Source of the DNA: Tubiluchus corallicola
Taxonomy: Eukaryota; Animalia; Priapulida
Reading direction: 5' to 3'
DNA length: 64,000 nt
Assembly (NCBI GenBank): GCA_030141605.1
Contig: JAQGDQ010002373.1
Location: forward strand, 281,921-345,920
Under the pieces are notes generated by a model that worked only from the letters and a program-made list of their open reading frames with translations, was not told the origin of the DNA and did no database searches. Shown piece by piece: positions 372 through 59,117 of the stretch (positions are counted from its first letter, which is position 1; every line of letters begins with the position of its first letter). The position numbers and the translations under genes were made by a program.

Positions 372-3300
372 GATTTCCACATTGCCGTCCTACTCGAACT
401 GCCGTAAACCGTTAATCGCAAATAATAAACTTTATATTTCCACTGAAACACTTGCGATATTTTCTCAACAATATCTCTAAATATTATTGGCCTGGTCGAC
501 TTACGTGCGCAAATGTGAGTGCGCAGAGCGAATATGAAAAAAAGCTATCTTGAATGCGTTTGTGTTGTGTAGCAATTTTGTTCCTATTGCAAATGCTAAG
601 AAAAGCCTTAAATAGAAGAATAATTATTAGAAAAATTGCAATGACGTTTTTCAGTTTAAAAAAAATACTCTTAGGAAATTCTGTCGTGTTTGAAAACGAG
701 ACAAGGTAACGATATGTTGGCTGTCACAAATTTGAAAGGTTGGAATGTGTTGTTGACGTTTGTCACTTTTATATTTTTGATAAATATTTTCGTTTCTGAA
801 ACTCCAATTAACTTTAAAAAATGCGAATGAGTGTGATTGACAAACTGCAGTGTTTTATTATTAGTGCTAAGCAATTTATGCGATAGAGCTTAAAACCGCA
901 TAGAAAACACTCCAGCTTTTTTCTCGTCTGTTGTCTATTAAGTTTTATACTACTATACTGGCCTTATTTAACTAATTTTTAAGTTTATTTAACGTTTATA
1001 CGTAGAGTGATTTTCCGCACGGTGTCCCGCAAAGGAAATTCGCATGGTTTTCCAGGGCCAGAATTTCGTTATATTTTGCCAGTATCTAAGCGATTCTCGA
1101 AATGACTTTTGTGAGAATACAGAGAATCAGGATCTAAGTTACATAATTCAAGTACGATCAGTTATAATTATTGAAACAACTTACTTAAACTAGTCGATTG
1201 AATTTCAATTAAAGTGATTTATTATTATAAGAATTAATCACTACCAGTACTAACATCTTTTTTTCAGAATGAGACCTAACATAAAATTTACTGATTCAGT
1301 CTCCAAACCATTTAGAATTTTGTTGATTCTCCTCTTTGTCAGTGAATACAATCATCATTTCCCTTATCAAGAAGTGTATAACAAGCATTTGAAAGAAAAA
1401 TTTATCTAAATTTATGCGAAACTCGGAAAATTTTACTCGTATGGTTTTACTGATATGGTCATATCACGCGCACACTTTTGATATGATAGGTCATGCATCA
1501 ATCTACTCTAGCAAAATCTAAGAAAGAATTAAAGAAGAAGATCGTAGACAAATACAAATAAACTTTTAAATGGTCCAGCATTTTCCCCCCATACTATAAT
1601 TTGTAGTGTAGTTAGTGTTTTAACTATATTATTTTTGTTGCAGTTTATTTATTACAATATTGCTGATTAATTAATTATTTGTTTTAGTTTGTGACTGCAT
1701 ATATGTGACAAAATGCAAATAAAGATAATACATATTGCTGGAATTTAACATAATTATGTTGTTGCCAGTCATATTTTCTCCTTTCCTTGTGTCCTAATTT
1801 TTCTTCTTTTTTCACTATCCTGTAACCATAATACCCTATGAAATACTTGATCCACGATACGTTTATCTCTGTTCCATCTTTCAAGATTCCTGTGAAACCT
1901 GGCTTGAATCTCCTATTATTGTATTATTGAATCCTTTTATTGATTTATTATTGTATTAATGTAATTTACTTTGAACATTTACATTAGTTTATACTGTAAC
2001 AGCGATTTTGTTATATGTTGTGTTATGTGTAATAAAAAAGTCTTGGAAACTTGCACATATCTTATATGTTGACTATTACAAAGAACTTGAAAGAAGATCC
2101 ACCTGCAGTAAATGCACCAGCCGCCTCGTACAAGAACCCTACGTAGGTAACAAATCCCATTTGGTACCTTCCTAAGTCTGCACCGATTTTCTAAAAAAAC
2201 GTCGCTCAAAGAACAATCTAAAGGAAAATTTCTTCTTAAAATAGAAAAATGATGCTTTTTAAAAGAGTTTTTTAATAGAAATTTTTTCTCTTTTAATTTC
2301 AGTTATTCGGGCTTCCACTCCAATAAAATTGGTTTTTGTTGTCATGCTGGAGACATTGCTTGGCCTTGTATTTAATAAAATATTGAAAATCACGTTTAAT
2401 GGGTACCACAACAATATTAATTTATGATTGGTGGAGCACGGTTTAACTAAAACTGGACGACAGCCAAAAATGGCAATACTGTTGTACCATGTCACGGCAA
2501 CGTATTTTTGATGGATGACAGGAAAAGGAGCCTTCAGTATTTTGTTTCTTGTTTGGTTGTTGCCAATTATTATTAATGTAACTAAACATATCATTTGAAG
2601 ACAAGTTCATGTCAATTTGTAATGTCAGGTTTAAATTAATTCATATTGCATAATTTAAATTCACTTATCTGTTGTTTTAACAAGAAGAACAGTTAAGTTC
2701 TTCGACTATGCAGCCTGATTTTCGCCATCTTAATTGTCATCTGGCCTGATGATGTCACTGACATTAAATATCCGTAGTGAGCTTAGCAAACGCGTTGCAA
2801 AATAAACGGCGGCTGTTGTATTTACAAACATACTATAATAGGTGTTCCTGCTTAATAAATAATGAGATGTCCAATATACAGAGATTCAAATACATCACTG
2901 ACTACTGTCAGTCCTATACAGTTTGCAAGTACTGTAAGTTCCTCAGTGGGTTTTGTGTTCTACAGTTTTTAGATGCCTGATTTAATACTAAACCTAGCAG
3001 AAGAAATGCTTTTCAGACAATGCTTCTTATATTTTTAGACACTTGGGAAAACACTCACATTTTTTTCTAATGTGCGTTCCCGTTTTCTATCTCACTACGA
3101 TCCCATTTTGTCTGTATGTCATGATCCTGGAGATCCCTGGAATGCATGTCATGTGGTTCAAGATGTACAAAGTGCTACATTCAGTTTCTGGTCCAATGTT
3201 ATTATTATTATTATTGCAATAATTATTATTATTACATCACTTTTATACCAGTTTGGAAGTTTTTTGCTATACAAAATTGCGACTAATTGGTGCTTATGTT

Positions 3301-4390
3301 GTCCAACCTTACCCTAATTGCAAGCAATAATAGGTCTGAAATTGATTGATGTCTTTAACCAGTATATACCCTTCAGCAATAGTATGTGGTCACTAATGGC
3401 CACTTTGCCAGATTGTTCTGTTCGTATCAAAAGGTACTGTGATTTACTGGGTTGATTTTCGGCCTCAAATCGTAATTGTGAGGTGTGGCCTTTTACAGCA
3501 GTTAAAAACAGATTCGAATAGCTATTATATGCTATGCACCATGATACCTTTGGAAATTTATTACAGTTGCCTACTTTGTTTGTTCAAACGAATAAGTTTA
3601 AATTGTGCAAAAATTAGATTTCATTCTACTCAATAGATGTTTTGTTTCTTAGAATAAATGTTCAATTGCATGAGTAGCACATACTACCAAACATTGTTAT
3701 TGAGGTATGATGGTGTCAAAACTCTAGTGCCATATCTATTGCTCACGACATTTTAACACTTGCCGTAGAACATGTACAGTGCAGGTATAAAGATAAAATT
3801 TTCGCTTGTTCATAACTGCCATAATCTTTGTAAATCGAATCCACATTCTATGCCGCTTTCACAATCGGTGGCGCGCAGTCCAAAGTTAAGGCGGCAAAAT
3901 GCACTCTGTTTTACGGTAAGAAATTTGGAAGTTGGGATAGCTGAGCACTTACAACATAATGAAGCTATAAATTTTAATGAAAATGTACCTTACACTCTGA
4001 ACACTTTCACTTTAAGAACGTTAATTTAAACCTCATTTTATAAAGTGGTCCTAGTACCCTTTAAGGCCGACCATTTGGTTGACCAGGTGACCAAAACCAC
4101 TTGTATCGTCCATTTGACTTAGCTCAGGTGGACCATAAAGGGTAAGAGAAGGTTGATTGATTGTTTTCGGTTAGATTGCAGCAAAACCGATAGATTATGA
4201 CTTCGCTATTAGGAATATTAGGTTTAAGCTCTTACTATTCTTATTCAGGTTATTCAGTTTAGCTTCTCTGGCAGTGCATTGTGGCGCTCTACTGAATGGC
4301 AACAGATTACATCATTGTTTTGATAACAGTGGCATTTACCAAGTTGTATTTGTTATGAAATTTATTGTGTTGCGTTTTTGCAGGTTGACG

Positions 4391-4402
4391 ATGGCTGCTT
4401 GA
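4391..4402 (+). promoter_or_regulatory. Short uORF (Met-Ala-Ala-stop) immediately before the FBXW7-HhH start codon
   Basis: GACG-ATG-GCT-GCT-TGA-T-ATG; A at -3 and G at +4. Confidence 0.5.
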
Positions 4403-4403
4403 T

Positions 4404-4529
4404 ATGGAAAGAGGAAGACGTGGAAACAGGAAGTGGAAACTTGATATAAATACAGCTGATCTTACACAGTTACAAAGTCTGACTGGGGTCGGACCCAGAA
4501 AGGCAAAGCAAATAATCAAATCTAGAAAG
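4404..4529 (+). CDS. FBXW7: HhH exon A ([42 protein letters not shown])
   Basis: Acceptor TTTTTGCAG at 4383, ATG at 4404, donor AAG|GTAATT at 4530, phase 0. DINTA...L..L.GVG...A..II..R is the ComEA/HHH_3 signature. Confidence 0.85.
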
Positions 4530-7500
4530 GTAATTAGTAGTAGATGACTGTTATTTAAATACTTACACTTCTATTTCTCTTCAGAAACAAATGAAAAGCA
4601 ACTAAAAGGATCTAAGACTGACAACAAAAATACATCTTTTTCTATCTAATCGCCCAGGTAATATTTTGTTTATTGCACACCTGACCAGAATTTTATTACA
4701 AAAATTTTGTACATTCATATACTTACCGGATGTAGTCATATAAAAGCGTATTTTTTAATTTAAAACAAAATGCAATGATTATTAAGACATCACTCTTTCG
4801 GAGTGTACGCAGCCATGTTTTCGACGACAAACTCTGGTCAACGTTGCTGTTTTGTATGATGCTTATTATCATATTGGAGGCTAAAAATACCGTATTTTCT
4901 GTCAAATTAGTGTATTAATGACCGAGTAGTGTTGCCGCTTATTCCATAATTATCAATATACGTTCATGCTTACAAAAAACAGACTATACGATAATTTAGT
5001 AATGTGAAACAAAAAACTAAAAAACAAAGTGTGAAATAATGTGCATTGAAAATAATTTAAAACTTTACTTCTAACTGGTGGGAAATAAACAAACTTTGAT
5101 TTCAACGGATTTTAAATGTTTCATGATCCAGCTTTAAATATTCACAAAGCTTAAGAATATTTTTAAGTCTCCTACTGATGTCTTTTGACCTCATAAAGCT
5201 AAGACAGGAATAAACTTTTGTGTGGCCTACCTAAGATTTGTCTACTGCAACTATAACTGTCTACGTTTCGACAAAATTAATACCCAGAAGTTCTGGAACT
5301 ATTCGTGTATTCTTGCACTTTTTTTTGTAGCTGAATAGAAAAAAGATTAAATTACCATTAAGTTACATTCATATTTAAAACTCGTACACCATTTGGCTGA
5401 TACATTAAAAACTATTGTATATACGATATCAAGTAAGGTTTGAGCTCCTTGACAAACATCAAAAACTGTTTCATCACGCTTTTGCTAATTTTGTAAACGC
5501 AATGAAAATGAAGTCTGCATTTGATTTTTATAATGCTTAATAACATTTATTGTACAATTTTTTTATTTTGATTAAGGAATGTTTTAATTTGACCTAAATC
5601 ATAAGTATATTTTTTTATATCAGATTATTATTATTTACTAATTCCTTCATTTTCATTTTTATTTATATTTACTAATGTAAATATAGTATGATATGTATGA
5701 AACGTTAGAAACAAGACTGTTTTTAGTGAGGAACTAGGAAGTTAGTATTTTCACTCGCCAGGACACTGAGCTAGTCATTAATTTTGTGCCTGATCATTTC
5801 AAGTTATTTTAATTGTTACACGGTCAATTTGAGTGTTGTTCTTGTTTGACTAATTTACTCTTTGTTAAGTTTTTATCTTTTATTTTTGTAATTTTTAGTC
5901 AGTAAATCTAATCTAATCTAATTTATGGATGGTTTTTATGATGGTGGTACTTAAACATAACAATGAATGTGATTTATCTATCTGCATTAGTATTTAAAAT
6001 TTAGTGATGTTGCAGCAAGATGGTTGTTCAATTCATGTTGTCTTACTTATAAATACATGTCTTTGAACTTTGGCTTGATCCAAACATAGTCCCTTCATAT
6101 ATCTAAGCTTTGCTAAATATTTTTATAACAGTGTCTATTCCTAATTGATTTCATCATAAGTATCCCATAGTTTGATTTTTATGGGTTAGGTACAGCTAGT
6201 AGGTTTCTAATGTCTAAGGTTCGATGTCATATGCGTTTGGCTTGTTCAGTTTTTTGCTTCAAGATGTTTGAAGACTTCATGACAGGGCCAAAAATTTCCT
6301 GAAATGAAGTGCTCCAAATGCTGCCCCTCGAGATGTCCTGTAGCTCACATAATTAATGCATAAGGCTGATCTGTGTGATAATGTTCATTGTCTGCTGAAC
6401 TTGAGGGATAGTCTGCACTTATTTATTTATGATTTAGACATCATGGGACATCTACAATGTTTTCTTATATTTTGTACATGTGCATGTTTTACATATTTTA
6501 AAATTTGAGTGTGTGTTTCAAAATTATTTGTCTTGCACAACAGCTGTTCTAAAATCGATTGATTTTTAATTTTAAACGTATATTTTAAATAGTTTGTTAT
6601 TCCGCTCAAAATCAGTGTTTTCATTCATACAGCAGAAAACTTTCCCAGGCAGATACATTGGTGAAGAGGGTGTGCAGCGGTACTAACTGTTCATTCATGC
6701 CAAATAACCACTCATTAATTAGGCATTTTTATAGTAATTTAACATTGGTATTTTTTAGCATTTTTGACCTCATATTGCTACTGAGATATTAACCTGAGAT
6801 ATTAGTCATGGTTCTTAAATTTTGTTTGTTTATCATGTGTTTGGTGTCAGTGCTAAGAAAACCAAATTTTCCAGAATTTTTATGAGGCCAGTGAACGTAT
6901 GAAACCAGGAGCCTTAGTGGTCTTGCTTTCGCACATGGTTACAGATTTCTAATACTGTGAGAAAAAGTTGTTTTTTCTGATATAATGGGTATAATTTCTA
7001 ATTTGCAGCCTTCTTTTGTATTCTGCTCACCTTATTTTTATATTATCTGTAAATGATGTCTTTGCATTGGCTAACTGCTCTAATCATTTGTAAATATGAT
7101 CTTATTACTCTGCAATTGATACTGAACATATAATGACATATAAGCTTTGGCTCACAAGAGGAGACAAATTTAACATGTGGCTTTTTAGCAACTTATTAAC
7201 AGTTTACATCGTATCCTTGTAGCTATTTATTAAATGACGAAACAGTGTTAAATAATCTATAGAAAATGGTTGCTTTTGCCTTTTTTACACGCCCTTTGAA
7301 CGAAGTGTAATGGACCAGTGACTTCTAATATACCTATCAGCTACAGTTGTATGATTTTGCAGTTATTTTAAAAACTTTGGTGCAGATAAAAGCTGAATGG
7401 TGCCAGTAAGCATTTTTACAGTTTCGATGTGTGCACGAACAGTTGCTGTAGGTCAAAGGTTAAGTGTACTACAACCGTCAAATGGCGTGTATAAAGCAAA

Positions 7501-10500
7501 ACCGTCTGCTGTATCAGTTCAGTAGCTTCAGTTGTTTTATGTGGACTCACATTGTAACCTATACCATTCAATTCGCCTCATCAAGACCTTGATATGCTAC
7601 ATGGTACTATTCGTAAACACTCAATGCATTTCTGTTCCCGACCCCAATTTTTCCGTTTTTGCCCCCTAGCGGGGTCGCGGATTAGCTATTCTCGTTGCAA
7701 CATATGCCATTCGATCTGCCTCATTGAGACCTTTCATTTCATATGCTACAAGGTACCTTTGCTCAACACTCAGTGCACGTCAGTTCCCGACCCCCATTTT
7801 TTGGTTTTTGCCTCCTAGCGGAAAATTGTCCCCCTCCAAATCACCCATATTTTGCCATATCCAACAACTTGGCCCCACCTAACCACCAAATATTGTCGCC
7901 CTAGCCCACAAACTGTGGGAGCAGATGGATCTTAAAGAAAAATAAATGAAGACCCGACTGCTCCATGACCTTTGACTCGGCAACTTGAGTCACGTGTATA
8001 CATATATAACTTTGGCCAGAGAGTCCCTAGCACCCTGTGAGTTTTATGTCCCTAGCACTCAGCGTGTAAAAGGTCACAAATTAGGCGGTCCCCAAATTTT
8101 GCATTTTGGCCCCTCACTCGGGCGTTTAAAGCTTGTCGGCTTTTTAAAACCCCAGGTGCACACCTGCCCCACAGTACCCAAATACTTGTGAAAAAAATTT
8201 GGAAAATGACGAAAGTCGTAGGAGGAGTTGAATCATAAAGGAAAAACCGACCAACGGCCACTGTCCTTCCCCCCTTGACCACTGGTCAGCGATTGCTATA
8301 CATTTGTACGTCCCCTGCCCAGGGCTACCAACTCTGCGTGTTTGGCGACCCTAGCTTGCAAGGCTTACGAGTTATTAAGCGTTAAAATGGCGGAGAATAA
8401 ATAATATCAAATTTGCACTCAATGAAAAACAGTAAGATTTTGCTATGGCGAAATCTTAATAAATTACAAAACGTAATTCCTAAGTGAACTCAATAGTCAA
8501 CCTTTTCAATTAAATTAATTGTAGTTGCATAGGCATCAAAATTTATAAAATTAACATCATTATATAATATGTACATCTGCATTTGCATATCCAGTACCTC
8601 CCAACTATGATTTCGTCATTTTATGTATATTAATAGCTTTGGCACACTGCGAGTTGATATCAAGCATTGATTGGCAAGGCCTCTTCATTGCAATGTTTGT
8701 GGCATGAATGTACACGGGCTCTTTATTAGGGATATCTGATATAAGATAAATGGCTAAATTAGTAGAGTTAAACAGCCAGAATCAATTTAAATAAAAATAG
8801 CTCAGGGTGAGTATTGAACCCAGGCAATCAAGAGCCATTCACGTGAAGCATGTACGTGAAAACCCTCAGCGTGAACTCCACTATATTTTTAAAATTCCAC
8901 ATTTGATTTGTAAAGTGGCACTTTTTACACAAATATGAATGAAGCTTCAAATGATGGTCATCTAATGAACGGTATGTTGTCGCAAAAATACAGGAAATTT
9001 ATTAGATTTTAATCAGACATATTTGCTTACATGACATCATAAATCTGACTTGCAAGTGAAATTGCTTATATACCTAGGAAAATAAAAACGGAGTTCATGA
9101 TTAATTAATGATACAGTTCACGGTTGATGGTGTGCTTTAATTCTATTGACACTTTGTTATTGACGAGCCGCTTTGTGTGATCACACCCGTTCGTGCTACC
9201 ACTATTGACCCACATCTGACTGTCTTGTGTGCTGGTGTGTGTCCGGGAAACGTTGTGTGCCTTCACTGCCTTGCACTACAACCCCAGGTACGGGGTGCTA
9301 CCAGTTACGCACCACAGAACACCTAGTATTACTATCAGAAGACATTCTTATAGTACTTTCTATGATGTGTGGCTGTACTGTGCTTGATATTCTGAAGTTT
9401 TATTAGTTTTTTATAAGTTTGTTGTTGCCTAGTGTACCCTGAGTACTTTCTATTAGTTCATTTTTATCCCTAGTAGCTCTGACCTATAAGAAAACTGTTT
9501 AAAATCCAGCCCTGAAAGTACAGTAACAATGTCTATGGTGTTAGCTCTAGTGTTGCGCAAAGCTAGATTTCTTATAAATATACATATGTTAGATTCCCTG
9601 AAATGTGATACTCACTCATCAAAATGGCTGTGATTATTTGGAGTTTTTGATTTCTAGAGGCAGAAATGTGTGACGCTAGTCATGCTGCAGGTTCGTACTG
9701 GAGTGATTAAATGCTCATTTTAGTGTATTTTTTGATTAAGGGAACACCTGTCCATTCGTTCGGCAGTGACCATTTATTATGGCAGAGGAGATAAAGCCAG
9801 GAGATTTAATACATGGTTTAGTCTAAAGAACTTGATTCAGTGCATAAGCTGTTACAGTTGTTCAGTACATAAGCTGCGTAACATAGAATAGATTAGTTTA
9901 ATGTCTCTTTTGAGATCATTTATTTGTGTGAACGTACCTTTATTCTTGAAATGGCAAATTGTTTGTTGAATACATTTTACTTATTCTTTGCAGATTTCTT
10001 CTTTTACTTTTCCCTTTTGCCATTTACTTTTTATTTAACTTATTAATCTACTTTTGATCATTATTTCATTCATTTGTGTGTTCTTCCTGTATACATTCTT
10101 CATACAGGCATTTATTCACTGATTCATTCGTTTTTATTGATTTCCTTACTCATCTAATCATTCCTTCGTGTTCATTTAGTTGTTTATTTATTATGTGCTG
10201 TTACGGTTAATTTTGTAAGGAAACTGTTCTAAGTAACTTCCTCTTTTGTAAGTTCACATGCTGTCATTACTCAGCACTGAAGAGGTCATATAGTTCCTTC
10301 TTCCTTGTGGGAAAGGAGATTTGAAACGGATTACAATCTATTATTTTTAAATAATTTATGCTGTGAGATACATTTCACTGCAGTATATCTCGCTTTGCTT
10401 AGTTCTGTTAAAAAGTGAACTGAATAGTTGAGTGGTCATGGTATGTGGTTAGTAACCAAAGTTGAACAGTGCTAGGTTTGGTTAGCAAATGAATGGGTAA

Positions 10501-13500
10501 CTGTCAAGAAAATAAATTCTGGGAATTTTCATGTGCCATACTGCTTCTGATTATTTATTTCATTGTTGCTTGCCTATATATATATATATATAAAGGTTCT
10601 CCTCCCACCACAGTTATTAACATAAAAACTGGCCCCTGCATTGAGCGCTGGATGGTGGCTTCTAGGTACACACACAACAACAGTGCGATACAAACTACAT
10701 GTATAATTATGTAATATGTGTTACAGAGTGGCCAGTTTTCATGGCTTTCAACTAATGTTTAATAATTGCATTATTTTGTATAGATACGAGGTGGTTTCGT
10801 CAGCGTGAAGGATCTTTCAGATATTCCAGGCATCGGAGAGAACATTGTCAATCTCAACCGGCACCGTCTCATCTGCTCAAAGCTTGCACAGATTGCAGCA
10901 GCACGCCGGGCAAAGGCATGCCGGCGGTGAGTAGTTCTTAACCCAACCATTCTTAAGAAAAAGCCTTTTCTGTTTAATGGGATAGAATCTGTCTCAGCTC
11001 GACTGCAGGTTGAGAGAGCTTTTTGAGGAATCTACTAACTAAGAGGAGATCTCAGATAGCCTACACTTCTTAAGTGTTTCATTGAGAGTACCCTTGAAAT
11101 TGGCTAAAATGGCATCATATAATGCTATGTTGGTGCTCTCAAGAGCATGTTGGACACTCGCTGTCTCAACCATTGTGCTACAAAAGGTTAATAACTGTGA
11201 CTGACAAACTGATCAAAAACTGAGCTAGGTATTATCTCGAAAATTTCTTCTCACTTTTTCCTGGTCCTGTCAGTTTCTGGCCCTTTTTATGTTTTTTGAA
11301 GTGCGGACAATTGTTTTATCATGTGTGTGCGCATGCATGTATGAGCATGTGTGTGTGTGTGTGTGTGTGTATGCATGCGTGCGTGTGTGCGTGCATGTGC
11401 TTTGTGAAACAAACAGATTTTTTGTCAGCGGTTTAATTGGCAACATTCTAAAAAACTTTCTAAGGTTGGTTTGTTACTGTTATAAAATTGGTTTGTTTGG
11501 TGATAATGATTTGATGTAGAATGTCTAGTAGCTAAGCTTTCATCTTTCCAGTGAGACTCGTAGTTCTGCTAGAACTAAACAGTGGTTGGCCCTAGAACGC
11601 ACAGGTAAAGAGATGGACCATGGTAGTCCTGGAAAAGAGAAACCGTCTACTAGTCATCCAAATCAACACTTAAAAGAGGTGGCTGACGAAGAAGATGATG
11701 TTCCGCCTGAATGCACTGACACACCGTCACCATCTGCATGTGTGAGTAAAATGATCATCATCAATGGTGACTGTTAAGGATTAGCTGATGATAACGATGA
11801 TGATAGTGATGATAATATAATGAGATGGTGACAAAATTTATTTAGTTTTAAAATCATTTTCTTATTAAAGAAATGAAGGAGTGAAGCGTCACTCGGGCAG
11901 CTAACAGCTAGCTAACATCTTCACTGATGGAGCACCATGGAGACTGAAGTTAAACCGCAAAACTCGTAAAGCATGCTAAATGCTGATTTCTACTTGCCTT
12001 AATGCAGAATTGGTTTTATAGGCACACATTAGGCTTAGAACCTTATTTATCTTTTCGTTACCATATTGTTGCTTGAACGGCTTACAAGATATTTATCGTG
12101 ATCATAACTTTACGCACTTACTGAGATTTAGCAGTTGCATGTGATGTGAAGAAAAAGTATTATCCACCATGGTTATTATTACTAACCACCGAAAGCTTCT
12201 CCATCTTTCATTATGAGTGCTGTCACAAACATGAAGCAGTTATGTCAAGTTATACTTCATTTGAAGCACTCTCAATCAGTCATTGCTTTAGAATAGCCAT
12301 GCAGAATATGCCAAGAGAATGCTCCGGTTTGCTTATGATATAATTAATGCTGCATTGATTTATTAATTTGTTAATCAGTTCACTTTTAAAGATGTTCTTG
12401 GTTTAATGAACTTAATACTGATCCTGTATGTAATAGCTCAGTGTTCCAAGATTTGCATTTCATGCCTATTCGTGCACACATAGGCACATGCCATAATTGG
12501 GTTCCTTGAATTTTTAAGTATTAGTTTGTGGGAGCTAATTTCAAACTTTAGTTAAACAATCTTTTAAAATAGTAACATCTACAATAGTCTTCTGGAGATC
12601 TAATCCGATGCTTTTAATACTATCAGTCCAGTACCACAGCCGTCTGACGGTGCTGCTGGTTAGTTTTTGCTGCCCAGCAAAAAATTGTAATGTATCCTGC
12701 TTATCAACTTTTGTTGTGGGCATTCAGCTAAAATTGTTAGCATGCCATGATTGTCCAATTTTTTTATCATTTCTTTGAGGACGTGGTTTGCACTCTTGTG
12801 ATAAAGATTTTGTGCCATCGTTCACACGAGTGCTTCAGCAGAAACCCATGTGTTAGAAAAATGTTGTTAGGAATTTTATTATGTTTTTCAGACAAGTCTT
12901 ATTGGCCATTAGGTCAGTAAGAATTGTAACTGTACCGTCCGCATCTTGAGCTCTGCTTAGAAAAATATCAATTAAGCCTCTAAATGTATTAAACCATAAA
13001 CATATGATAGTTATATTTTGCTTGTGACATTGTCTCCACAGGCATTTTTACATTATATAGCTGGTCCTTTGTGTGATTGTAATATACAATTGTCGTTTTT
13101 TACAGACAACGCCACTTTTGGAAACCACCAGTGCAGTGACTTTATTACACCTTAAGAACACAATGGCTACTACTTGCGCCTCAGACAACGGAGACAGTGA
13201 TACTGATGATGATGATGGCGATGATAATGATAATAGTATTGGCGAGAGAGAGCAGAGTGACATAAGCGACATAGAAGCTGATGAAATAGCGGCAGCTAAA
13301 CAGAACACTATAGTCGATGAACATACAGAAAAAATCAGGCAGCGCAAATTGGTAAGTGATTTTGTTGTTTGCTTTCTGCACCAAGATAATCAGGCAGCGC
13401 AAATTGGTAAGAGATTTTGTTGTTTGCTTTCTGCACTGAAATAAGCGTATAAAAATATGGAAAATTGATCTAATACATGTAGATGATTACATCTTGTTGT

Positions 13501-22500: not shown

Positions 22501-25500
22501 TAAGTTTGCTTTAAATAATTATTATATTGGACATTAAAATATTTTTTAGTAGAATATTCAAGAGAAAAGTCAACGACAAGGAATTATACAATTGCTTAAC
22601 CCACACTGTATGATGTTTTTGAAAGAGGACATCTTGTAGCTCTGTTCCTTTCTCTTTCTAAAGCACTAGTTGTTTGTATATGATATTCAGTAAAATTTTA
22701 AGTAAATTGTGTGGGAGGTTTGTCATGCAAAAGCCATTTATAGAAGCTCAGTATCTGAAACTATTTATTTGTAAAGCATTTTTTGGAACTCTTTTTCAAA
22801 TTTCTGAAAACTTGACAAAATGTCAAATTAACAATCACCATGACTGATTTTTAACCACACGCCAATGTTTCAGTAATTTGCCTCATCAATCACAAATTAC
22901 GTTAACACAGCTTTGCTGTTTTTCTATCAATTTGATCATAGAAATAAGAAAATTTGAATGTTTTAGCAGAGCTCATGAATTTAATTAATTGCAGCATTTG
23001 CAACCAAAACTCTCAAGAACTAATGAATGTCACATTAATAACTAATTAATTAAACTATCATTAATTTTTAGCATGGATTTCTGTACGTATCTTATTTTAC
23101 TTGCACAAGATTTAACCAATTGAAATAAAAGTAAACTTGCTAATTGCCTGGTTGACTCACAATTTTTTCACACTTTTGTTGTTCAGTTAATCAACTATTA
23201 TTGTTGTTGTTGTCGTCGTCGTTGTCATCATCATCATCATCATCATTAGTATTTATTTATTCATTGGGTTATCACATTTCAATGTGTAAAAATCTATTAT
23301 TGAGTTGAGAGCCAACTAATTTGATGACATTTAAAATTTATCTATGAGTTTGGAGTTTGATTACAAACATTATGATTCTTTTTAACTCGCTAATTACTGC
23401 TTTCAGGCTGAGATTTCCCTGAAAAAGAAAAAGTTTTTTTTAATTATAATTTTTGGGGTCATCACTCATGATGCTCTACCTGCCCCTTCACTAGGATCCA
23501 CCTTCACTAGTGGTGACTCCTTAATCCAACGTGCTACTCACTCAGTAACTGGTTTTACTCCTGTCTTACAATTTTAACGCAACATTGAACTTTCTTAAAT
23601 TTAGCTTGAAGAAGACAAAGTGCCCTTTAAGTCTCAAAAAAAATTATTTTCCCTGGTGCATTTGTGCTTGGTAGAGATACAACAATTTAAAAAATCATAA
23701 AAATTATAGATAAAACTACATGTAAAGTGTAAGTATACAATGGCATTAAAATAAGGGATACAAAATTCATTAAGAAGCTGTATTAAAAACTAAAATAGAA
23801 AAAAAAATCATTGGGAAGCTGTATTAAAAACTTATTTAGAAAAAACATTACAATTTCTAATTAATAAAAAAAATCAAGATCAAAATGAAACTGCTGACAA
23901 ACATACCTGAAGCTACTTGTATGGCCTAGAATAGATCATGAAATAAAGCCTTCTTAATGAACTTTGTATCCTCTATTTTAATGTCATTGTATACTTACAC
24001 TTTACATGTAGTCCGTGACGGAATGAAAGCTTCTGGAAAAATAAAAGTTTTTGAGATTCAAAGGGCACTGTGACTTCTTTATGATTATTTCTTGAATTTA
24101 GTATGCTTCATGCATTTAAGAAATTCTGACATTCGTAGTGCTGTTATCTCAGACATAATGACTCTCTAGTTATTTCTTACTTTCTTTGTTTGTGTTTTTA
24201 CGATATTTGATTGATTTCTTGTAAGAATACACACTTTCCTGGAAATTTATCTTTTCTTTGTTTTCTGTGCTACATTTACAGGTTTAATTAAAAAGTAGAC
24301 AAATGAAAAATGTTGGTTTTTTTTGTTTATTTTGGTTTTATGTCATTGGATTACTTTTAAGATTATACGTATTCCATGAAAGTGATTGCTAATATTTGAC
24401 TGCATTGTCAGGACTTAGAAAAAACAGAATGACACCTGGCAAGGTAACGTTCCATTAGTCATTGCTTGAGTTTCATTTCAGGTGTTTAAAATTATACTTT
24501 GCCATTTCCGCTGCATTTTATGTACATTTGTACATAAATATTCATTTATTTTGGTTGTTTAAATTAATTTTAAATATTTTCTTTTAGTCAAAAAGAAAGT
24601 CAGAACGTGATGAGCCTACCACAGAGAACTGTGCTGCCAAGATCAAGCGCAAGTCGGGCGATTCCCCAACTGGAACACCGAATTCTTCTTCCACCAGAAA
24701 AATGTGCCAATTTAGCGATAGCCTACCACCGTTCTATTCCCAGTAAGTGTGGTACAGTCGTATCTTATACGTATTTTTATAGCAAAATTGCTACCTTTCA
24801 TTTTAAAGAAAAGTAGGAGTCCGCTAAGTGCCAGTTTAAATTCAGCAATATTACTGCGTTTTTAAACGAAAATTTCAGGTCAGCTAGTTATCATTACCCA
24901 CCACAAGAGGGAGTGATGGCAGACCGTCATCAGGCTTTTGGTTTACCAACAGGCGCTACATCTGCCTCATTAACGCCACGACGACGCATCCCGTCCAAAT
25001 CTAATCCACCAGTGGAGATGAACGAGTGGCTAAAAGTATTTCAGGTCAGTTTACTTTGAGATTCATACTGATCGCAAATTTAGAAATGGAAAAAAATTGC
25101 TCATAGTTAATCGTTGTGTGTAGATAAAGTTGTATGTTTGAGAAAGCTTGTGGTCATCTGAATCTGAAAAAATGTAGTCTCTTGATTCTTTTACGAAGGT
25201 GATGATTTCTTTATTGTAAGAGCTAAATATTTTTTGTATTTACTTTTAGTCATGGAGTAATGCTGAGCGCTTGCTAGCGTTAGATCAACTAATAGAATTA
25301 TGTGAGCCAACACAGGTACGACATATCATGACTGTTATTGAGCCACAATTTCAGAGGGATTTTATCAGCTTATTGCCAAAAGAGGTAATTAACTGTTTTT
25401 CATTTCTCATGTTAACATATTTCTTAGGTTAACAAGTAATTCTAATATTCACATAATTTGAGTTTTGATACAAATTTTTGCTGCGTCAGAAATGGTAATT

Positions 25501-28500
25501 TGTAAGAGCACTAGCTTATAATGCTTCCTCTTACTTGTCAGTTCTGTTGCCATTTTATGCACATTTTATGGTCAACACCAAAGTTTAGAGCACTGATTCT
25601 GCCATCTAGTTGAATTGCTGTTGAACTAACAGGAGTTGGTATGCCTCTAAGCCAGTGGTTCTTAACCTTGTTGGAGGTACCGAACCCCACCAGTTTCATA
25701 TGCGCATTCACCGAACCCTTCTTTAGTGAAAAATAAAATATGATTTTTTTCAAATTCAAGACATAGATATGTTTTTTACTGGTACACAAAATGAGCCGTG
25801 CATGAACATCACCTTATTCAAAGAACAAAACCAACACAATGCATAAACTCACAACAAATTACATACCTGCAAATCAGTGTGACTTCTGCTGTTGCCTTTG
25901 AGAGACCAGTTCAGATATGCATGGCTTCACCTTGGCCACTCTGCTGAACCCCTGAGATCGACTCACCGAACCCCTAGGGTTCGATCGAATCCAGGTTAAG
26001 AACCACTGCTCTAAGCTAATAGTTTTTCATGCACTATTTGTAGTTGCTAATGTTAATTATTGTGTACTCCTAATATTTAAAAAAAACTTGGAAATGACCA
26101 GCATTTGTGCATTGCAATTTCACCTAATGCATCATAATTAGTCATTTGAACGAGAGAGGAAAACCGTGTAAATATTCTTTTGTTTTAGCTTTTTTGTAAA
26201 CTTTCTGGTTCGTTTTAGAAAAATAGTCTGCAATTTGCTGTCGCAATTTATTGACCATGGCTCATTTAAGTTTTACACTCACGACAGAGACATTCATTCA
26301 TTCATTTTCATATAAAATTTAATGCCTGCGGGCCATTTTTCCAAAATTGCTTAAATTTTTTTGAACTTTGGAAAATTATAAGACTATTATGCTTAGATAA
26401 GTTGTGTTTGCTGTTGAAAAACTAACTGCTTACAGTCAGTAATAATTAATAGATCAGTAATAGTTAATAGATAATGATACAGAGTGAAATTAATGCATAA
26501 CATAATGTTGACCTTTTTAGCTTGCCCTGTACGTGTTGTCGTTTTTGGAGCCTCGGTCACTTTTACATGCGGCTCAGACATGTCGTTATTGGCGTGTGTT
26601 AGCCGAGGATAATCTACTTTGGCGAGAGAAGTGCCGAGAAGCTGGAATAGACGAGGCAGTCGTGTTTAACAAGTATGTATGCAGTTTTATACAGAGCACG
26701 ACATTGGCTTTTTGTTCTTATACGAATGAAGCATAGAAACATGATTAAGAATGTTTGCTATTAAAAATAAGCTAGTGACAGCATGGTTTCAGTCAAACTC
26801 GATTGACTTCCAATCATTCACTTTTACATTGCGCTTGTGGCAAAATTTTTGCCTTGCGCCTAGTTTCTTGAATTTCATATACATTAGAATCTTGTTTTGT
26901 CACGGTGTTTGTGATGGCATAGCCTGTTATACTTGCATATTACATATTACAGTAAAACTTACATATTACATGCACGTGCATCCACTGAACATTACACTTG
27001 TGTTAGTAATCTCTTGTCACCCCTTTCCGTAAATGAAACTGCTAATAATGGGGTTGTCATTTTCTACTGTATTAGCTCAAACACCTGAAACCATTTAAAC
27101 TATTCTAAGTAGAGCATACCTGCTTCATGGGACTCTTTAGTAGAGCAAACAAAAGTGTATACCCAACGACAGAGATATTTTTAGAATGCGATTTTGTCCT
27201 GAAACTCTTAGAACTATGAGATGTTCTTATCAATTGTGTGCATAAAATTTCAAAAGTATTTTGCTGTTTTATTTTCATCTTTCATTTATTGTTCCAGTTT
27301 TTATGTTGATAGATAATACTTCCTTTAAGCTTTTAAATTGGTGCGGAGAATTAAGTTGTCTAAGTCTTGATTTTTATATCCATCTTGATGAAGAAATTCT
27401 GTCGCAAATATTTCATTTGTCTCAGGTCGTTTTTTTTTACAGATTTCCTTGCTTTGTTTTTATCTAGGAAACGAAGATTAGTCTCTGGCACTCATCGAAG
27501 TCCTTGGAAAAGTGCTTACATGCGACAGCATCAGATTGAAATGAATTGGCGAGTCGGTCAAATTCGCACGCCCAAGGTATAAGTTAAGAACGTGCGCTGT
27601 TATTTATAATCTTTAAATTTTTATAACATTGTCACTTAATAATGGTATGAGCTATTAGTTGAGATTTTTTTAACCAGACTTGTTCAAATAAAAAAATGTG
27701 AAAAGCTGAGAACGAACCTAGCTGATATTGGACTTGTAGTCTAAAGTTAGTTCTGGCTATTTCAATTTCTTATCTTGGCATTGGATTTAGAATCCAAAAG
27801 TCCAGGTTTAAATTAGGGCTCAGTTTCGGTTATGTTTGCCTTACAAAAAAACCTTGAGTTGTCAGTTTATTCTATTACGATATTCTACATTTCAGTTTCT
27901 ATCCTGCCCATATGTTTTGGTAAGCAAAACTAAAGATTTTTTTATTTAATATTGGAAAAATATTTGTGCTTTTCTAGGTGTTGAAGGGACACGATGATCA
28001 TGTTATCACCTGTCTGCAGTTCTCAGGTAACCGGGTTGTCAGCGGATCGGATGACAACACGCTCAAGGTGTGGTCAGCAACCACCGGAAAGGTAAGCGAA
28101 GTTTCTTTGGACACATATCTTATTTATTGTTTCATAAATGTTCCATCAATACAAATGTAAACATACAACAATGTATAGAATAACAAACAAAATGCTAAGT
28201 CACACTTTTGCCTACAGTTTCATTGTGTCCGTTGTACATACAGACCTATGAAGCAAAGTTCAAAAACTTTTGTGTAACAAATTAGGAAAGCCTGTTTTAA
28301 TTTAATAGTTGTAACAACATAATACAACATCCAACTTTTTCTAGTGTTTACGCACACTTGTTGGTCACACTGGCGGTGTTTGGTCATCACAGATGTCGGG
28401 TAACATTATAATCAGTGGTTCAACTGACCGCACACTAAAGGTTTGGAATGCCGACACTGGACAGTGTACGCACACTCTGTACGGGCACACGTCAACTGTA

Positions 28501-31500
28501 CGATGCATGCATCTACATGGGAATAAGTAAGCTTTTTTCAGTTTTTAATGTACTTTTAATCTACCCAGTGACTTTTACAGTCAAACCTCGTTTGGCATTA
28601 CAAAAGGAGTAACGCTCCTTTTGTAATGCCAACCTCCCTCAGGACCCAAATTTTAGTAAAACAAAATATCCGTATTTGCATAAATACGTATGCATGAATG
28701 CACCTTGTTATAATGCCAGACTCGCTATAACGTTTTTGCATTCTCAAAGTAGGCGGTGTAAAGAGGTTTGACTATTATGTTAATTTAATGTTCAGTAACC
28801 CAGATTCTAGATCTAGAGAAAGCAGGTGTTCAGATTTTTATTGCTTTTCAGTGTGTATGGCATTATATTATCATTTTCCAAATGCATTCAATATGTTATA
28901 TCTTTCTGCATTTCAGAGTAGTGAGTGGATCACGGGATGCAACACTTAGAGTCTGGGACGTTGACAGTGGTGAGTGTTTGCACGTGCTGATGGGTCACGT
29001 TGCTGCTGTCCGATGCGTCCAGTATGATGGCAAGAGGGTTGTTAGTGGGGCGTATGATTACACTGTTAAAGTTTGGAATCCGGATTCGGAAGAGTGCCTA
29101 CACACGTTGACCGGACATACGAATCGTGTCTATTCCTTACAGGTATGGCATTTTTAAAAAATCGATCGTAATAGTAGCAAGAATCGAGTAAGCAAATGTC
29201 TTTTACAGCTAATATAACAAAATAAATTACAAATTAAGAGCCATTGACTTTAACTTCATAATTTGAAAAAAAATGAATTTCATGTAAAAAATTAATTTTA
29301 TGTAACTATGTACTTTTAACTGTTAACAATTTATATGTTGTCAAGTCGCATCTTGCCAGAAACAGGAGTCTGCAATGGTGTATTTCATCTGTTGTAAATG
29401 GTCAAAACACAAAAACAAAATCTCCCACTCAGTACCACTTTCTCTCATCACATAACATTGAAATCCTGGGAAATTTAGGTAGTTGCAGTTATTATCTTTA
29501 TTATATCAGTGTAATTTTAAAAGTACTTTGTTAACTAATTCTTCGCTTTGTTTTCACTGCACACGAATGCATCCATTACAAGAATAGGAGTACAGTACAT
29601 GGCATCTGTTAGTACTACTGGTATCGTATTTTAATGTTTATGTAAATTATTCTTGTCTCTCACATCATTGATTGATGTTTACATTTTAGTTTGATGGCAT
29701 TCACGTAGTCAGCGGTTCACTGGATACATCGATACGTGTTTGGGACATTGAAACGGGTAACTGTTTACACACGCTGATGGGACATCAGTCGTTAACTAGT
29801 GGCATGGAGCTCAAGGACAACATACTTGTGTCGGGGAATGCTGATTCGACAGTCAAAGTGTGGGACATCGTGACAGGGCAATGCTTGCAAACATTAACAG
29901 GTAAACTAGGTCTCTTACCTTAATGTGTTCTACTACTGGTTTCTACTGGTGCTGCTGCTATTACTACTTGCTACTGTAGTACTTTACCACTATTTACTAC
30001 TATGTTCAGCTACTGTAGTTTGCCAGTTAAAGGTGGGGCAAGCTGAAATTCATTGAATTTTTAATACCAAACTTGAGTAATATATCTAAAGAAATTGGCA
30101 GTGATTCTGGAGTCTAGACTCGAATCGCAGATGATATTTGAATTATGAATTTAATAATTCTGTGTTCTTTCTATCAAAAAGTTCATGTTATGTTTTTCTT
30201 TTTATATTCTGTATTAAACAATCTCAGTATTTTTTGTTTGACTTAGGCACATAGTTAGCCTAGATAGCAATCTGCTTAATCTTCCTCTATCTGGGGCAAG
30301 TTATATTCTACATTCTTTTGTGACTGTCACACTTGCTTGATTGATAATATAACATTCAAGATGTGTAAACACTTTTCAGGCCCCAACAAACATCAGAGTG
30401 CGGTCACTTGTTTGCAGTTTAATAGCAAGTTTGTTATCACGTCTTCTGATGATGGTACCGTAAAACTGTGGGATTTGAAGACTGGTGAATTCCTGCGAAA
30501 TCTGGTGTCTTTAGATAGTGGTGGCAGTGGTGGTGTTGTGTGGAGGATAAGGTAAGCTAACTGAAAATTACAAAAACAACATACTAAGATTGACTCCCAA
30601 AATATGTGTGATGCGATATATGCAGAACAAGTTGATAATAGCAATTATACTTTTAATATATGGTCTTGTATGAGATTTTTTATTCCTGGAAATGACAATA
30701 ATTCATTGCAAAAAATATAGTTTTAAACATGAATTGAAATAGTACAGAGTAGTATAAAAAATGACAAACATTGTTTGAACCCTAAATAGGAGTGTAGTGG
30801 CTATAGAATTAATAAGTAAGCACTTTGAACACGACTTTAATGTAGTTCAATTATGTAAACATAATAAAATACTAGGTGATAGTAAACTTTTACTGTGTTA
30901 TCAGTTCTTGTTTGTTAGCCAAGACAACACAGCCTGTCTAGACAAGACAATATGTTTCCGACTCCTTATTGCTAATATTAGGCACATTCAAAAAGCTAAT
31001 GTTTTAGTTAAAGTTGAATCTTGAAGTGCACTCGTAACATGGCAATCGTATGCTAATAAAAGTTGACGTGAAGTAATTGAAGCTGTAGCTGTAGAACGTA
31101 TCAATGAGTACATTGAAAAGTTGTTGGCTTGACACAAGCATTGCTAGCAGCCAAAGCAGTAGTAGGCTAATTACATTGTTGCGTATAAGCTTGTGAAATG
31201 GCAAACGTGAGCCAGAAAATGCACAAACACCTTTTAAACTCAAAGTATTGACATGTTTTACGTTTTCTTGGCTTTCTATGCAAACAATAGCTTACTCATT
31301 ACACAAGTAATGAATAAAAATCAAGCAGTTAATTGAATTATTTTAACCTTCATTGTCAACAACTTCATCTAATCTTTTATAAAGGCTGCAAATGTTAACT
31401 CAGATGTATCATAAGTATTGTATCGTTATAGCTGTACTAGAAACAGGACTATTATTTTGTTTGACGTTAGTTGATAGCAACTTATTTTTGTTTCAGAGCA

Positions 31501-31593
31501 AGTCAAACGAAATTAGTCTGTGCTGTTGGGTCAAGAAATGGTACAGAAGAAACAAAGTTATTAGTGCAAGATTTTGATGCTGATGTTAAATAA
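4404..31593 (+). CDS. FBXW7: F-box/WD40 protein 7 (FBXW7/archipelago/SEL-10), longest predicted isoform about 807 aa, with N-terminal HhH domain
   Basis: Phase-consistent exons: 4404-4529, 10784-10926, 11552-11741, 13106-13351, 24588-24742, 24879-25044, 25250-25384, 26521-26672, 27468-27576, 27978-28091, 28345-28526, 28917-29142, 29690-29900, 30380-30551, 31497-31593 (2424 nt). Joining the first four exons to the core is inferred from splice sites and phase. Confidence 0.75.
7550..8460. mobile_element. Non-autonomous repeat with internal tandem units and terminal hairpin (Helentron/HINE-like)
   Basis: GC-richer island with two diverged ~143-bp units (about 7552-7672 and 7696-7820), a GACCTTTGAC motif, and a 3' palindrome TAAGATTTTGC-TATG-GCGAAATCTTA at 8433-8458. 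Confidence 0.5.
10784..10926 (+). CDS. FBXW7: HhH exon B ([47 protein letters not shown])
   Basis: Acceptor TTTTGTATAG, donor CG|GTGAGT. It continues exon A in frame and supplies the second HhH motif (GGF.SV.DL..IPGIG). Confidence 0.85.
11322..11400. repeat. (TG)n / (TGCG)n microsatellite
   Basis: Directly visible. Confidence 0.9.
13333..13436 (+). repeat. 55-bp-period tandem duplication spanning an FBXW7 splice donor
   Basis: AATCAGGCAGCGCAAATTGGTAAG(T/A)GATTTTGTTGTTTGCTTTCTGCAC at 13333 and 13388. Confidence 0.9.
13533..13995 (+). mobile_element. Degenerate tRNA-derived SINE-like relic
   Basis: A-box-like TAGCCAAGTGG and B-box-like GGTTCAATAC at the 5' end; the 3' boundary is approximate. 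Confidence 0.35.
16800..16857. repeat. 19-bp minisatellite x3 (CACAGTACTGTTTTTAACT)
   Basis: Directly visible. Confidence 0.9.
17510..17560 (+). CDS. FBXW7: Candidate alternative FBXW7 first coding exon, hydrophobic ([17 protein letters not shown])
   Basis: ATG follows an in-frame TAA, ends at a consensus GTAAGT donor in phase 0, and is in frame with the common exon at 24588. Confidence 0.4.
19633..19695 (+). CDS. FBXW7: Candidate alternative FBXW7 first coding exon ([21 protein letters not shown])
   Basis: ATG to AAG|GTAAGG in phase 0, in frame with exon 24588, downstream of a GC/CpG-rich patch at about 19370-19470. Confidence 0.5.
23609..24079. mobile_element. Foldback/MITE-like element with long imperfect inverted arms
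   Basis: 23715-23777 is the near reverse complement of 23950-24012. The outer arms AAGAAGACAAAGTGCCCTTT and AAAGGGCACTGTGACTTCTT also pair. Confidence 0.7.
24588..31593 (+). CDS. FBXW7: FBXW7 common core: dimerisation domain, F-box and WD40 propeller (11 exons)
   Basis: Recognisable FBXW7 peptides: [67 protein letters not shown], the phosphodegron-binding arginines in TVRCM, GSRDA and AVRCV, and the C-terminus [21 protein letters not shown]. Confidence 0.97.
25653..26008 (-). mobile_element. hAT (Buster/Charlie group) non-autonomous element, 356 bp
   Basis: Perfect 16-bp TIRs CAGTGGTTCTTAACCT / AGGTTAAGAACCACTG, an identical 8-bp TSD CTCTAAGC (nnnTAnnn) at 25645-25652 and 26009-26016, and a minus-strand transposase C-terminal remnant [21 protein letters not shown]. 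Confidence 0.93.
28578..28774. mobile_element. pogo/Tigger-like MITE relic containing a perfect 18-bp hairpin
   Basis: Ends TA-CAGTCAAACCTC ... GAGGTTTGACTA, with internal TTGGCATTACAAAAGGAG-TAACG-CTCCTTTTGTAATGCCAA at 28592-28632. Confidence 0.65.
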
Positions 31594-47817: not shown

Positions 47818-47958
47818 ATTTCGTCATTCTGATTTCTTTGTGACTATAATGTTGTCGATAATATCAGTGCAAGTATCAACGTCTATAGTTATTTTTTGAC
47901 CAGGTTTAATAATTTTTAATTTGACAAAGGTTCCGTTTGAATATGAGAAACAAGAAAC

Positions 47959-51633: not shown

Positions 51634-59117
<7,484 letters not shown>

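What the first reader, a model, noticed from the sequence alone, without database searches (positions are those of the whole stretch)
4404..13351. FBXW7 apparently fused to a ComEA/EEPD1-type tandem helix-hairpin-helix DNA-binding domain
Seen: two small exons absent from the ORF track (4404-4529 and 10784-10926, separated by a 6.25-kb phase-0 intron) splice to [62 protein letters not shown], with both GhG hairpins intact. Two acidic, disordered exons (11552-11741, 13106-13351) continue in phase (2,0,0), without a stop, into the FBXW7 core at 24588. Established: this pattern is the (HhH)2 domain of bacterial ComEA and animal EEPD1 (Pfam HHH_3), a sequence-nonspecific DNA binder. The FBXW7, Ago and SEL-10 proteins I know lack it, and vertebrate FBXW7alpha acts on chromatin-bound substrates and at double-strand breaks. 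Inference: an SCF substrate receptor that tethers itself directly to DNA, linking DNA binding or sensing to phosphodegron ubiquitination. The intron inside the domain argues for long residence rather than bacterial contamination.
Basis: partly seen in the sequence, partly recalled or inferred. Interest (0 to 1): 0.88.

Follow-up and report, generated by a model that had tools for sequence, protein, structure and literature searches.

The report
FBXW7's lost ancestral DNA-binding domain
This animal's copy of the tumour-suppressor gene FBXW7 begins with a small domain of a kind that grips DNA; the same domain heads FBXW7 in a hydrozoan, molluscs, crustaceans and starfish and a little-noticed second copy in sharks, amphibians, reptiles and birds, while the mammalian-type gene keeps only a likely decayed trace, so FBXW7 likely began as a protein-destroying adaptor that anchors itself on DNA.

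Summary
The four exons are real and in phase, and lead into a 15-exon, 807-aa FBXW7. A profile built without the window hits only the two HhH exons in all six frames. Contigs of a probable RNA run join 11741>13106 and 13351>24588; the two HhH-side junctions were not covered. The fusion is no local oddity. HHH_3 + F-box + WD40 occurs in Clytia, spiralians, crustaceans, echinoderms, a hemichordate, amphioxus, a tunicate and a second vertebrate paralogue beside RRP8 (sharks to birds). It looks ancestral. Bird and turtle models enter the domain at the window's intron position. Canonical vertebrate FBXW7 lacks the domain, but the 23 residues before its alpha start match the second HhH half, from the same boundary. 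The lysine ComEA needs for DNA binding is Lys/Arg in 66 of 69 copies. Likely mechanism: non-specific DNA tethering of dimeric SCF-FBXW7; binding is untested. Seven literature searches found no description, though databases carry the Pfam hit. The scan's notes held nothing on it.

The parts
4384..4403 (+). probable 5' untranslated part of the first coding exon (acceptor before 4384; 3-codon uORF 4391-4402)
   Evidence: acceptor score 6.3 on a matrix from the gene's own introns; inferred, no RNA joint seen
4404..4529 (+). coding exon 1: start Met and first helix-hairpin-helix (G28-V-G30, K33, R41)
   Evidence: HHH_3 35 bits; ComEA 8DFK match E 2e-4; X2 contig 4408-4469
4530..10783 (+). phase-0 intron splitting the HhH domain; position shared with the vertebrate paralogue
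   Evidence: GT-AG; bird and turtle read-through models enter the domain at the same residue
10784..10926 (+). coding exon 2: second helix-hairpin-helix, conserved Cys73, basic tail
   Evidence: HHH_3 profile 38-63; 39 bits with leave-one-out HMM; no RNA cover
11552..11741 (+). coding exon 3: linker, predicted disordered by analogy
   Evidence: open in phase; X2 joint 11741>13106; homologue's linker pLDDT under 50
13106..13351 (+). coding exon 4: acidic linker
   Evidence: X2 joints on both sides
24588..25046 (+). exons 5-6 (24588-24742, 24879-25044): basic KRKS motifs and start of the conserved core
   Evidence: X2 joints 13351>24588 and 24742>24879
25250..26672 (+). exons 7-8 (25250-25384, 26521-26672): helical pre-F-box (dimerisation) region and F-box
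   Evidence: F-box-like 50 bits; tblastn of homologues
27468..31593 (+). exons 9-15: WD40 propeller with the three arginine motifs, stop at 31591-31593
   Evidence: X2 joint 29142>29690; core 92% identical to Priapulus FBXW7

Best explanation
The window holds an FBXW7 gene whose protein begins with a ComEA-type helix-hairpin-helix domain, the likely ancestral form of animal FBXW7, and that domain likely tethers the SCF ligase non-specifically to double-stranded DNA. Shown: the gene model, the domain identity and the spread across phyla; shown through annotated read-through models: the shared intron position. Inferred: (1) the first hairpin and its lysine bind the DNA backbone weakly, as in ComEA; (2) FBXW7 dimerises (established for the human protein, recalled), so each dimer carries two domains and gains avidity, as EEPD1 does; (3) the long flexible linker lets the WD40 propeller reach phosphorylated transcription factors bound nearby, which favours turnover of the DNA-bound pool; (4) after a duplication before the shark-bony fish split, the RRP8-linked copy kept the domain and canonical FBXW7 lost it, leaving the second HhH exon as the front of the alpha exon and leaving chromatin recruitment to substrates.
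For: Gene and domain. Spread: of 151 FBXW7-family sequences (window included), 69 have a full domain (45 invertebrate, 24 vertebrate FBXW7-like), 1 is cut short, 14 have the second half only (RRP8 read-through-type models) and 67 have none (the sample is biased towards the domain by the query). 6 of 48 FBXW7-like representatives add Hyalella, Eriocheir, Cyprideis, Styela, Clytia and a bivalve; Clytia passes the HHH_3 cut-off (39.9 bits). Tree: canonical (98) and FBXW7-like (99) are sister vertebrate clades (96), each with sharks. Residues: Vibrio ComEA G60, K63 and R71 map to window G30, K33 and R41 and are kept in 68, 66 (Lys/Arg) and 69 of 69 domains. The K62/63A double mutant of Vibrio ComEA and the Geobacillus K166A mutant lose DNA binding in EMSA (PMC3879209, PMC9747964, passages). 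The domain is more conserved than the linker in 8 of 8 pairs. AlphaFold of the amphioxus protein gives a four-helix domain at pLDDT 92-97 and a linker under 50. Isolated EEPD1 (HhH)2 domains do not bind; the dimer does (PMC12988330). Human Fbw7 that cannot bind substrate leaves chromatin (bioRxiv 2021.10.19.464955), as expected without a DNA anchor. Relic.
Against: No DNA binding was measured. The invertebrate domains are only weakly basic (mean net charge +1.1, range -7 to +8; window +6; vertebrate copies +6.9), and most have no basic residue after the second hairpin (Ser, Asn or Gly at window position 62). The second hairpin Gly is Thr in all 24 vertebrate copies. Three arthropod-clade sequences lost the key lysine (two to Glu, Strigamia to Thr), and canonical vertebrate FBXW7 and the sampled insect and nematode models have no domain, so it is dispensable. 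Two junctions lack RNA support. Only one cnidarian was found and its domain is divergent (33.9 bits on my HMM), so a separate fusion there is not excluded. The relic is weak in two sharks (-2.9 and -3.6 bits) and hhalign gives only P 0.002-0.005, probability 7-14%.
Confidence: 0.65

Rival explanations
1. The domain works as a protein-interaction or non-DNA polyanion module (a partner protein, RNA or poly-ADP-ribose), as (HhH)2 domains do in XPF-ERCC1 and Mus81-Eme1.
For: (HhH)2 heterodimerisation is stated in PMC12988330. Many invertebrate domains are near neutral, the second hairpin is altered, and a C-terminal Cys is kept in 65 of 69.
Against: The residues ComEA uses for DNA are the best kept (G30 68, K33 66, R41 69 of 69), and the vertebrate copies carry a near-invariant arginine run in the first motif.
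Confidence: 0.15
2. The domain is a damage or fork sensor: the dimer prefers ends, bubbles or forks and recruits SCF to lesions instead of scanning bulk chromatin.
For: EEPD1 uses dimer-presented (HhH)2 domains to bind fork-like DNA (PMC12988330). A role of human FBXW7 at breaks is recalled, not checked here.
Against: EEPD1's binding needs its EEP domain, which FBXW7 lacks. ComEA-type domains are non-specific. Nothing in the sequence points to structure selectivity.
Confidence: 0.12
3. The HhH isoform is a minor or decaying form, and the working protein in this animal starts further downstream.
For: The Priapulus model starts at the core exon. Seven chance-level candidates for an alternative first exon lie in the 11-kb intron. 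The domain is decaying in some arthropods.
Against: All key residues are intact in the window, and the domain is 39-47% identical to distant phyla against 24-28% for the linker. Exon 1 is in X2 contigs. A 'no domain' Daphnia pulex model (P0086) sits beside 773-775-aa D. pulex models in the cluster of the HhH-bearing D. magna protein, so short models can be truncations.
Confidence: 0.05
4. The two HhH exons belong to a separate small gene or are not spliced to exon 3.
For: Junctions 4529>10784 and 10926>11552 were not covered by RNA.
Against: 68 homologues carry the same domain at the N-terminus of FBXW7; splice sites and phases fit; exons 3-4 are joined to the core in X2.
Confidence: 0.03

Closest known systems
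FBXW7 / Fbw7 (human), Archipelago, SEL-10, Cdc4
   Same: F-box, WD40 propeller with the three arginine motifs, pre-F-box helical region, KRKS-type basic motif; core about 83% identical to vertebrate FBXW7 and 92% to Priapulus; the amphioxus model's best folds are Skp1-Fbw7 complexes.
   Different: N-terminal HHH_3 domain. Canonical vertebrate proteins keep only a relic of its second half, and human Fbw7 reaches chromatin through its substrates.
Vertebrate 'FBXW7-like' beside RRP8 (often filed as 'RRP8 isoform')
   Same: Same architecture, same intron position in the domain, acidic linker.
   Different: A paralogue, with a one-residue insertion in helix 1, an arginine-rich first motif and Thr at the second hairpin. 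No mammalian or teleost member appeared among the listed hits. No functional study found; PMC4556705 names five Xenopus Fbxw7-like genes but the word 'helix' does not occur in its main text.
ComEA DNA-binding domain (V. cholerae, B. subtilis; PDB 8DFK, 8DSS, 2DUY)
   Same: HHH_3; four helices with a loop between the two motifs; G60/K63/R71 equivalents.
   Different: No signal peptide or membrane anchor; fused to a eukaryotic E3 adaptor and split by a spliceosomal intron.
EEPD1
   Same: HHH_3-type domain on a flexible tether in a dimeric animal protein.
   Different: EEPD1 has two (HhH)2 domains and an EEP domain; FBXW7 has one, with F-box and WD40.

Membership tests
FBXW7 orthologues | F-box followed by a WD40 propeller | tested here: met
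   fold of the amphioxus homologue matches 2OVQ/2OVR
FBXW7 orthologues | groups with FBXW7 in a tree of the core | tested here: met
   sister to Priapulus FBXW7 (99) inside the animal FBXW7 set (quick and FastTree methods only)
FBXW7 orthologues | three phosphodegron-binding arginines | tested here: met
   the three motifs are present in the window and in 68-69 of 69 HhH-bearing proteins; their match to human R465/R479/R505 is recalled
FBXW7 orthologues | dimerisation through the D domain | tested here: inconclusive
   region conserved and helical at pLDDT about 60-68 in the homologue; dimer not tested
FBXW7 orthologues | assembles with Skp1-Cul1 and ubiquitylates phosphodegron substrates | not testable with these tools
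   biochemistry needed
ComEA-type HhH domain (Pfam HHH_3) | HHH_3 score above the curated cut-off | tested here: met
   exon 1 alone 35 bits against 27; Daphnia 54, Clytia 39.9
ComEA-type HhH domain (Pfam HHH_3) | two GhG hairpins and the K63/K164 lysine | tested here: met
   window G28-V-G30, K33, G58-I-G60; Lys/Arg in 66 of 69; the second hairpin is altered in the vertebrate paralogue
ComEA-type HhH domain (Pfam HHH_3) | four-helix fold without a connector helix | tested here: met
   amphioxus model: helices 14-18, 25-38, 44-49, 55-60, pLDDT 92-97; the window's own spliced domain was not folded and no fold search was run on the domain alone
ComEA-type HhH domain (Pfam HHH_3) | binds dsDNA without sequence preference | not testable with these tools
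   needs EMSA or MST
ComEA competence proteins | exported or membrane-anchored bacterial DNA-uptake protein | tested here: not met
   intron-split domain at the N-terminus of an F-box protein; residues 1-11 are charged, not a signal peptide
EEPD1 | two (HhH)2 domains plus an EEP domain | tested here: not met
   one HhH domain, then linker, F-box and WD40

The most novel reading that the evidence does not exclude
Animal FBXW7 arose as a DNA-anchored ubiquitin ligase. Most non-mammalian jawed vertebrate groups sampled still run two FBXW7 ligases: one that holds DNA directly (the unstudied RRP8-linked gene) and one that does not. The first exon of the human tumour suppressor's alpha isoform is the wreck of the second HhH exon, and its conserved in-frame 23 codons may still be translated in an N-terminally extended isoform.
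Probability: 0.45. Interest if true: 0.88.

Novelty: new variant of a known kind. Interest (0 to 1): 0.75.

Why it matters
FBXW7 is a much-studied tumour suppressor whose substrates are mostly DNA-bound transcription factors, and human Fbw7 appears to reach chromatin only through them. An ancestral form with its own DNA anchor gives a natural experiment on how DNA-coupled degradation is achieved: remove the domain in a sea urchin, oyster, Daphnia or chicken cell, or graft it onto human FBXW7 alpha. It also points to an unstudied second FBXW7 gene in sharks, lungfish, amphibians, reptiles and birds that databases often misname as RRP8, and it offers an origin for the alpha-specific exon.

Tried and rejected
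No whole genome is held for this window, so a second FBXW7 copy or other HhH genes in this animal were not looked for. The run search listed no holder on record as RNA; X2 is a guess and gave no cover on exon 2, which is no evidence either way. An HhH-region search with one sea-urchin protein was insensitive (3 hits among 25 candidates). The ESM Atlas gave only bacterial and viral HHH_3 clusters below 0.9, a lead only. A two-copy complex prediction of the amphioxus domain returned no answer (score 0.00); it is not used for or against anything. The careful tree did not finish (one search is the quick tree: 84 of 144 cores after removing near-duplicates, 7 mis-predicted cores dropped beforehand, one nematode added as a long outgroup). 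A second tree timed out and was rerun with FastTree, which puts the tunicate among ecdysozoans, probably a long-branch error. Rejected: that canonical vertebrate FBXW7 also keeps the first HhH half; hhalign aligned only the second half. Not supported: the acidic linker as a conserved DNA mimic, since linker charge runs from -47 to +35 in invertebrates. Alternative first exons in the 11-kb intron: 7 candidates at chance level. Origin of the domain (bacterial ComEA or an EEPD1-like gene) was not tested. Absence of the paralogue in mammals and teleosts is not shown: only 120 of 2,042 hits were listed, and three known HhH-bearing paralogues (P0062, P0096, P0116) were not in that list. Three look-ups of the scan's own notes gave nothing relevant.
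Full report
Observation. With the core exons fixed against homologues, the gene has 15 coding exons, 14 GT-AG introns and 807 residues. Pfam HHH_3 covers exon 1 at 35 bits (cut-off 27) and exon 2 at 16.9 bits, on successive parts of the profile. An HMM built from 68 homologous domains without the window scores the model at 81 bits, and among 2,886 six-frame segments of the window finds only these two exons (40 and 39 bits; next 6). The best PDB sequence matches of exon 1 are Bacillus, Thermus and Geobacillus-type ComEA entries, with EEPD1 weaker.

Transcription. No run on record as RNA holds the stretch. Run X2, guessed to be RNA, has contigs that skip introns at GT..AG ends: 11741>13106 (58 nt on the short side), 13351>24588 (116 nt), 24742>24879 and 29142>29690. 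It covers 4408-4469 with one synonymous change. Exon 2 had no cover, so the two HhH-side junctions are not shown by RNA. X2's exon pieces differ from the window at 2-12% of letters, so it is a related population or species, and it is a single study.

What it is. The core is 92% identical to Priapulus caudatus FBXW7 and groups with it at support 99, so the window is probably from a priapulid or a close relative. Two protein searches show HHH_3 + F-box + WD40 in a brachiopod, an annelid, a nemertean, bivalves, gastropods, a chiton, Daphnia, echinoderms of five classes (the holothurian named), a hemichordate and amphioxus. The representative search added an amphipod, a crab, an ostracod, a tunicate and the hydrozoan Clytia (6 of 48 FBXW7-like representatives among 147 new sequences). 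In my set of 151 family sequences, 69 have the full domain, 1 is cut short, 14 have its second half and 67 have none. These counts describe a biased sample, not frequencies. Absences need care: the Priapulus model begins at the core exon, and one Daphnia pulex model without the domain sits beside full-length D. pulex models. The insect and nematode models sampled have long N-termini with no match. The simplest reading is one fusion before the cnidarian-bilaterian split and several losses; this rests on one divergent cnidarian.

Vertebrates. Two sister clades, each including sharks, carry the core (96, with 98 and 99). One is canonical FBXW7, with no domain. The other has the domain in sharks and rays, lungfish, a caecilian, a newt, turtles, birds and squamates, 77% identical between lungfish and a gull. 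It lies next to RRP8, as shown by read-through models that databases name 'RRP8 isoform'. Two different RRP8 exon ends, at which RRP8 itself continues with other residues, join the domain at one residue, three before the conserved GF. That is the register of the window's 4529/10784 intron, so the intron is probably as old as the bilaterians. That the pair arose by whole-genome duplication is my recollection of neighbouring paralogue pairs and was not tested. No mammalian or teleost member was listed, but the list was cut at 120 of 2,042.

The relic. 44 canonical vertebrate proteins share a motif at the Met that I recall as the alpha start. The 23 residues before it line up without gaps with the second HhH half, starting where exon 2 starts: the residue before varies among 7 letters, the first residue is Asn in 33 of 34 distinct contexts. 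A matrix from invertebrate halves only scores 42 of 43 testable sequences at 12.4-16.1 bits. In four amniotes tested it ranks first of 224-277 windows, with 0 of 20,000 shuffles and 0 of 200 shuffled N-termini reaching it. None of 230,251 windows in 151 unrelated proteins reaches 13.7 (best 10.2). Against: two sharks score -2.9 and -3.6, hhalign gives P 0.002-0.005 at probability 7-14%, the hairpin glycine is gone, and I first saw the match by eye after an HMM hint. The closest sequence to human in my set is a gibbon. I take homology as likely (about 0.85). Whether the 23 codons are translated is open.

Mechanism. In Vibrio ComEA, K63 is the main DNA contact, K62/63A abolishes binding, and G60 and R71 matter; the Bacillus equivalent K164 is the best-conserved such residue (passages of PMC3879209 and PMC9747964). 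The window has G30, R32, K33 and R41 at the same spacing. Across 69 domains G30 is kept in 68, K33 as Lys or Arg in 66 and R41 in 69. The three exceptions at K33 are arthropod-clade sequences, two with Glu, which suggests decay before loss. AlphaFold of the amphioxus protein gives a confident four-helix domain on a 150-residue disordered linker, and the core matches Skp1-Fbw7 structures. EEPD1's isolated (HhH)2 domains do not bind DNA, while its dimer does (passages of PMC12988330). FBXW7 dimerises (recalled), so a dimer would show two domains. Human Fbw7 that cannot bind substrate is found only in the soluble fraction (passages of bioRxiv 2021.10.19.464955). I therefore infer a weak, avidity-boosted, non-specific DNA tether that raises the ligase's concentration near DNA-bound phosphorylated substrates (0.65). 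Against it: many invertebrate domains are near neutral, the second motif lacks a basic residue after its hairpin, and nothing was measured. Rivals are a protein or polyanion interface (0.15), a fork or damage sensor (0.12), a minor or decaying isoform (0.05) and a separate gene (0.03).

Novelty. Searches: FBXW7 + helix-hairpin-helix, 1 paper; FBXW7 + HhH, 8; FBXW7 with ohnolog, paralog, amphioxus, 178 holding three terms, 20 listed; Fbw7 + binds DNA + N-terminal, 27, 20 listed; FBXW7 + non-AUG + N-terminal extension, 5; F-box + ComEA + WD40, 9; FBXW7-like, 3. I saw these as listings, and read passages of PMC12045569, PMC2446394 and PMC4556705. None describes the fusion, the HhH-bearing paralogue or the relic. 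The library lacks most subscription papers and I read no supplements; domain tables in F-box surveys could hold the annotation. Since the Pfam hit is already attached to public proteins, this is an overlooked variant of a known kind, not a new kind. Interest 0.75.

Noticed in passing
proteins P0155-P0205 (canonical vertebrate FBXW7 models): 19 models, from a sawfish to mammals, share a Cys-rich upstream reading frame in frame with the relic and the alpha start; a possible conserved extended isoform or a conserved uORF.
   Followed up: partly
proteins P0073, P0089, P0094, P0101, P0117, P0119, P0184, P0194, P0198-P0200, P0203, P0233, P0234: RRP8/FBXW7-like read-through models in birds and turtles; even full HhH-FBXW7-like proteins (P0072, P0078, P0087) are named 'RRP8 isoform', which hides the gene.
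   Followed up: yes
proteins P0108, P0143, P0187 (Strigamia): HhH domains that lost the key lysine, in the arthropod clade; possible decay on the way to the insect state.
   Followed up: partly
window 36810-33787, minus strand: RPN2/PSMD1 (26S proteasome subunit) as one uninterrupted reading frame of about 1,000 codons, tail to tail with FBXW7 in a window of intron-rich genes; a possible retrogene.
   Followed up: partly
window about 53865-58581, plus strand: Exons of a phosphoribosyltransferase-domain gene, PRPP-synthetase-like by recall.
   Followed up: no
window 63998-63447, minus strand; 47947-48393 and 49578-49907, plus strand: A Gln/Pro-rich reading frame at the window's edge and two further likely exons; no Pfam hit at E 1e-8.
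   Followed up: no
window about 7000-8500 and 2800-3270: Summed contig depth of 1,100-1,750 in run X1 marks multi-copy repeats, the first inside the intron that splits the HhH domain.
   Followed up: no
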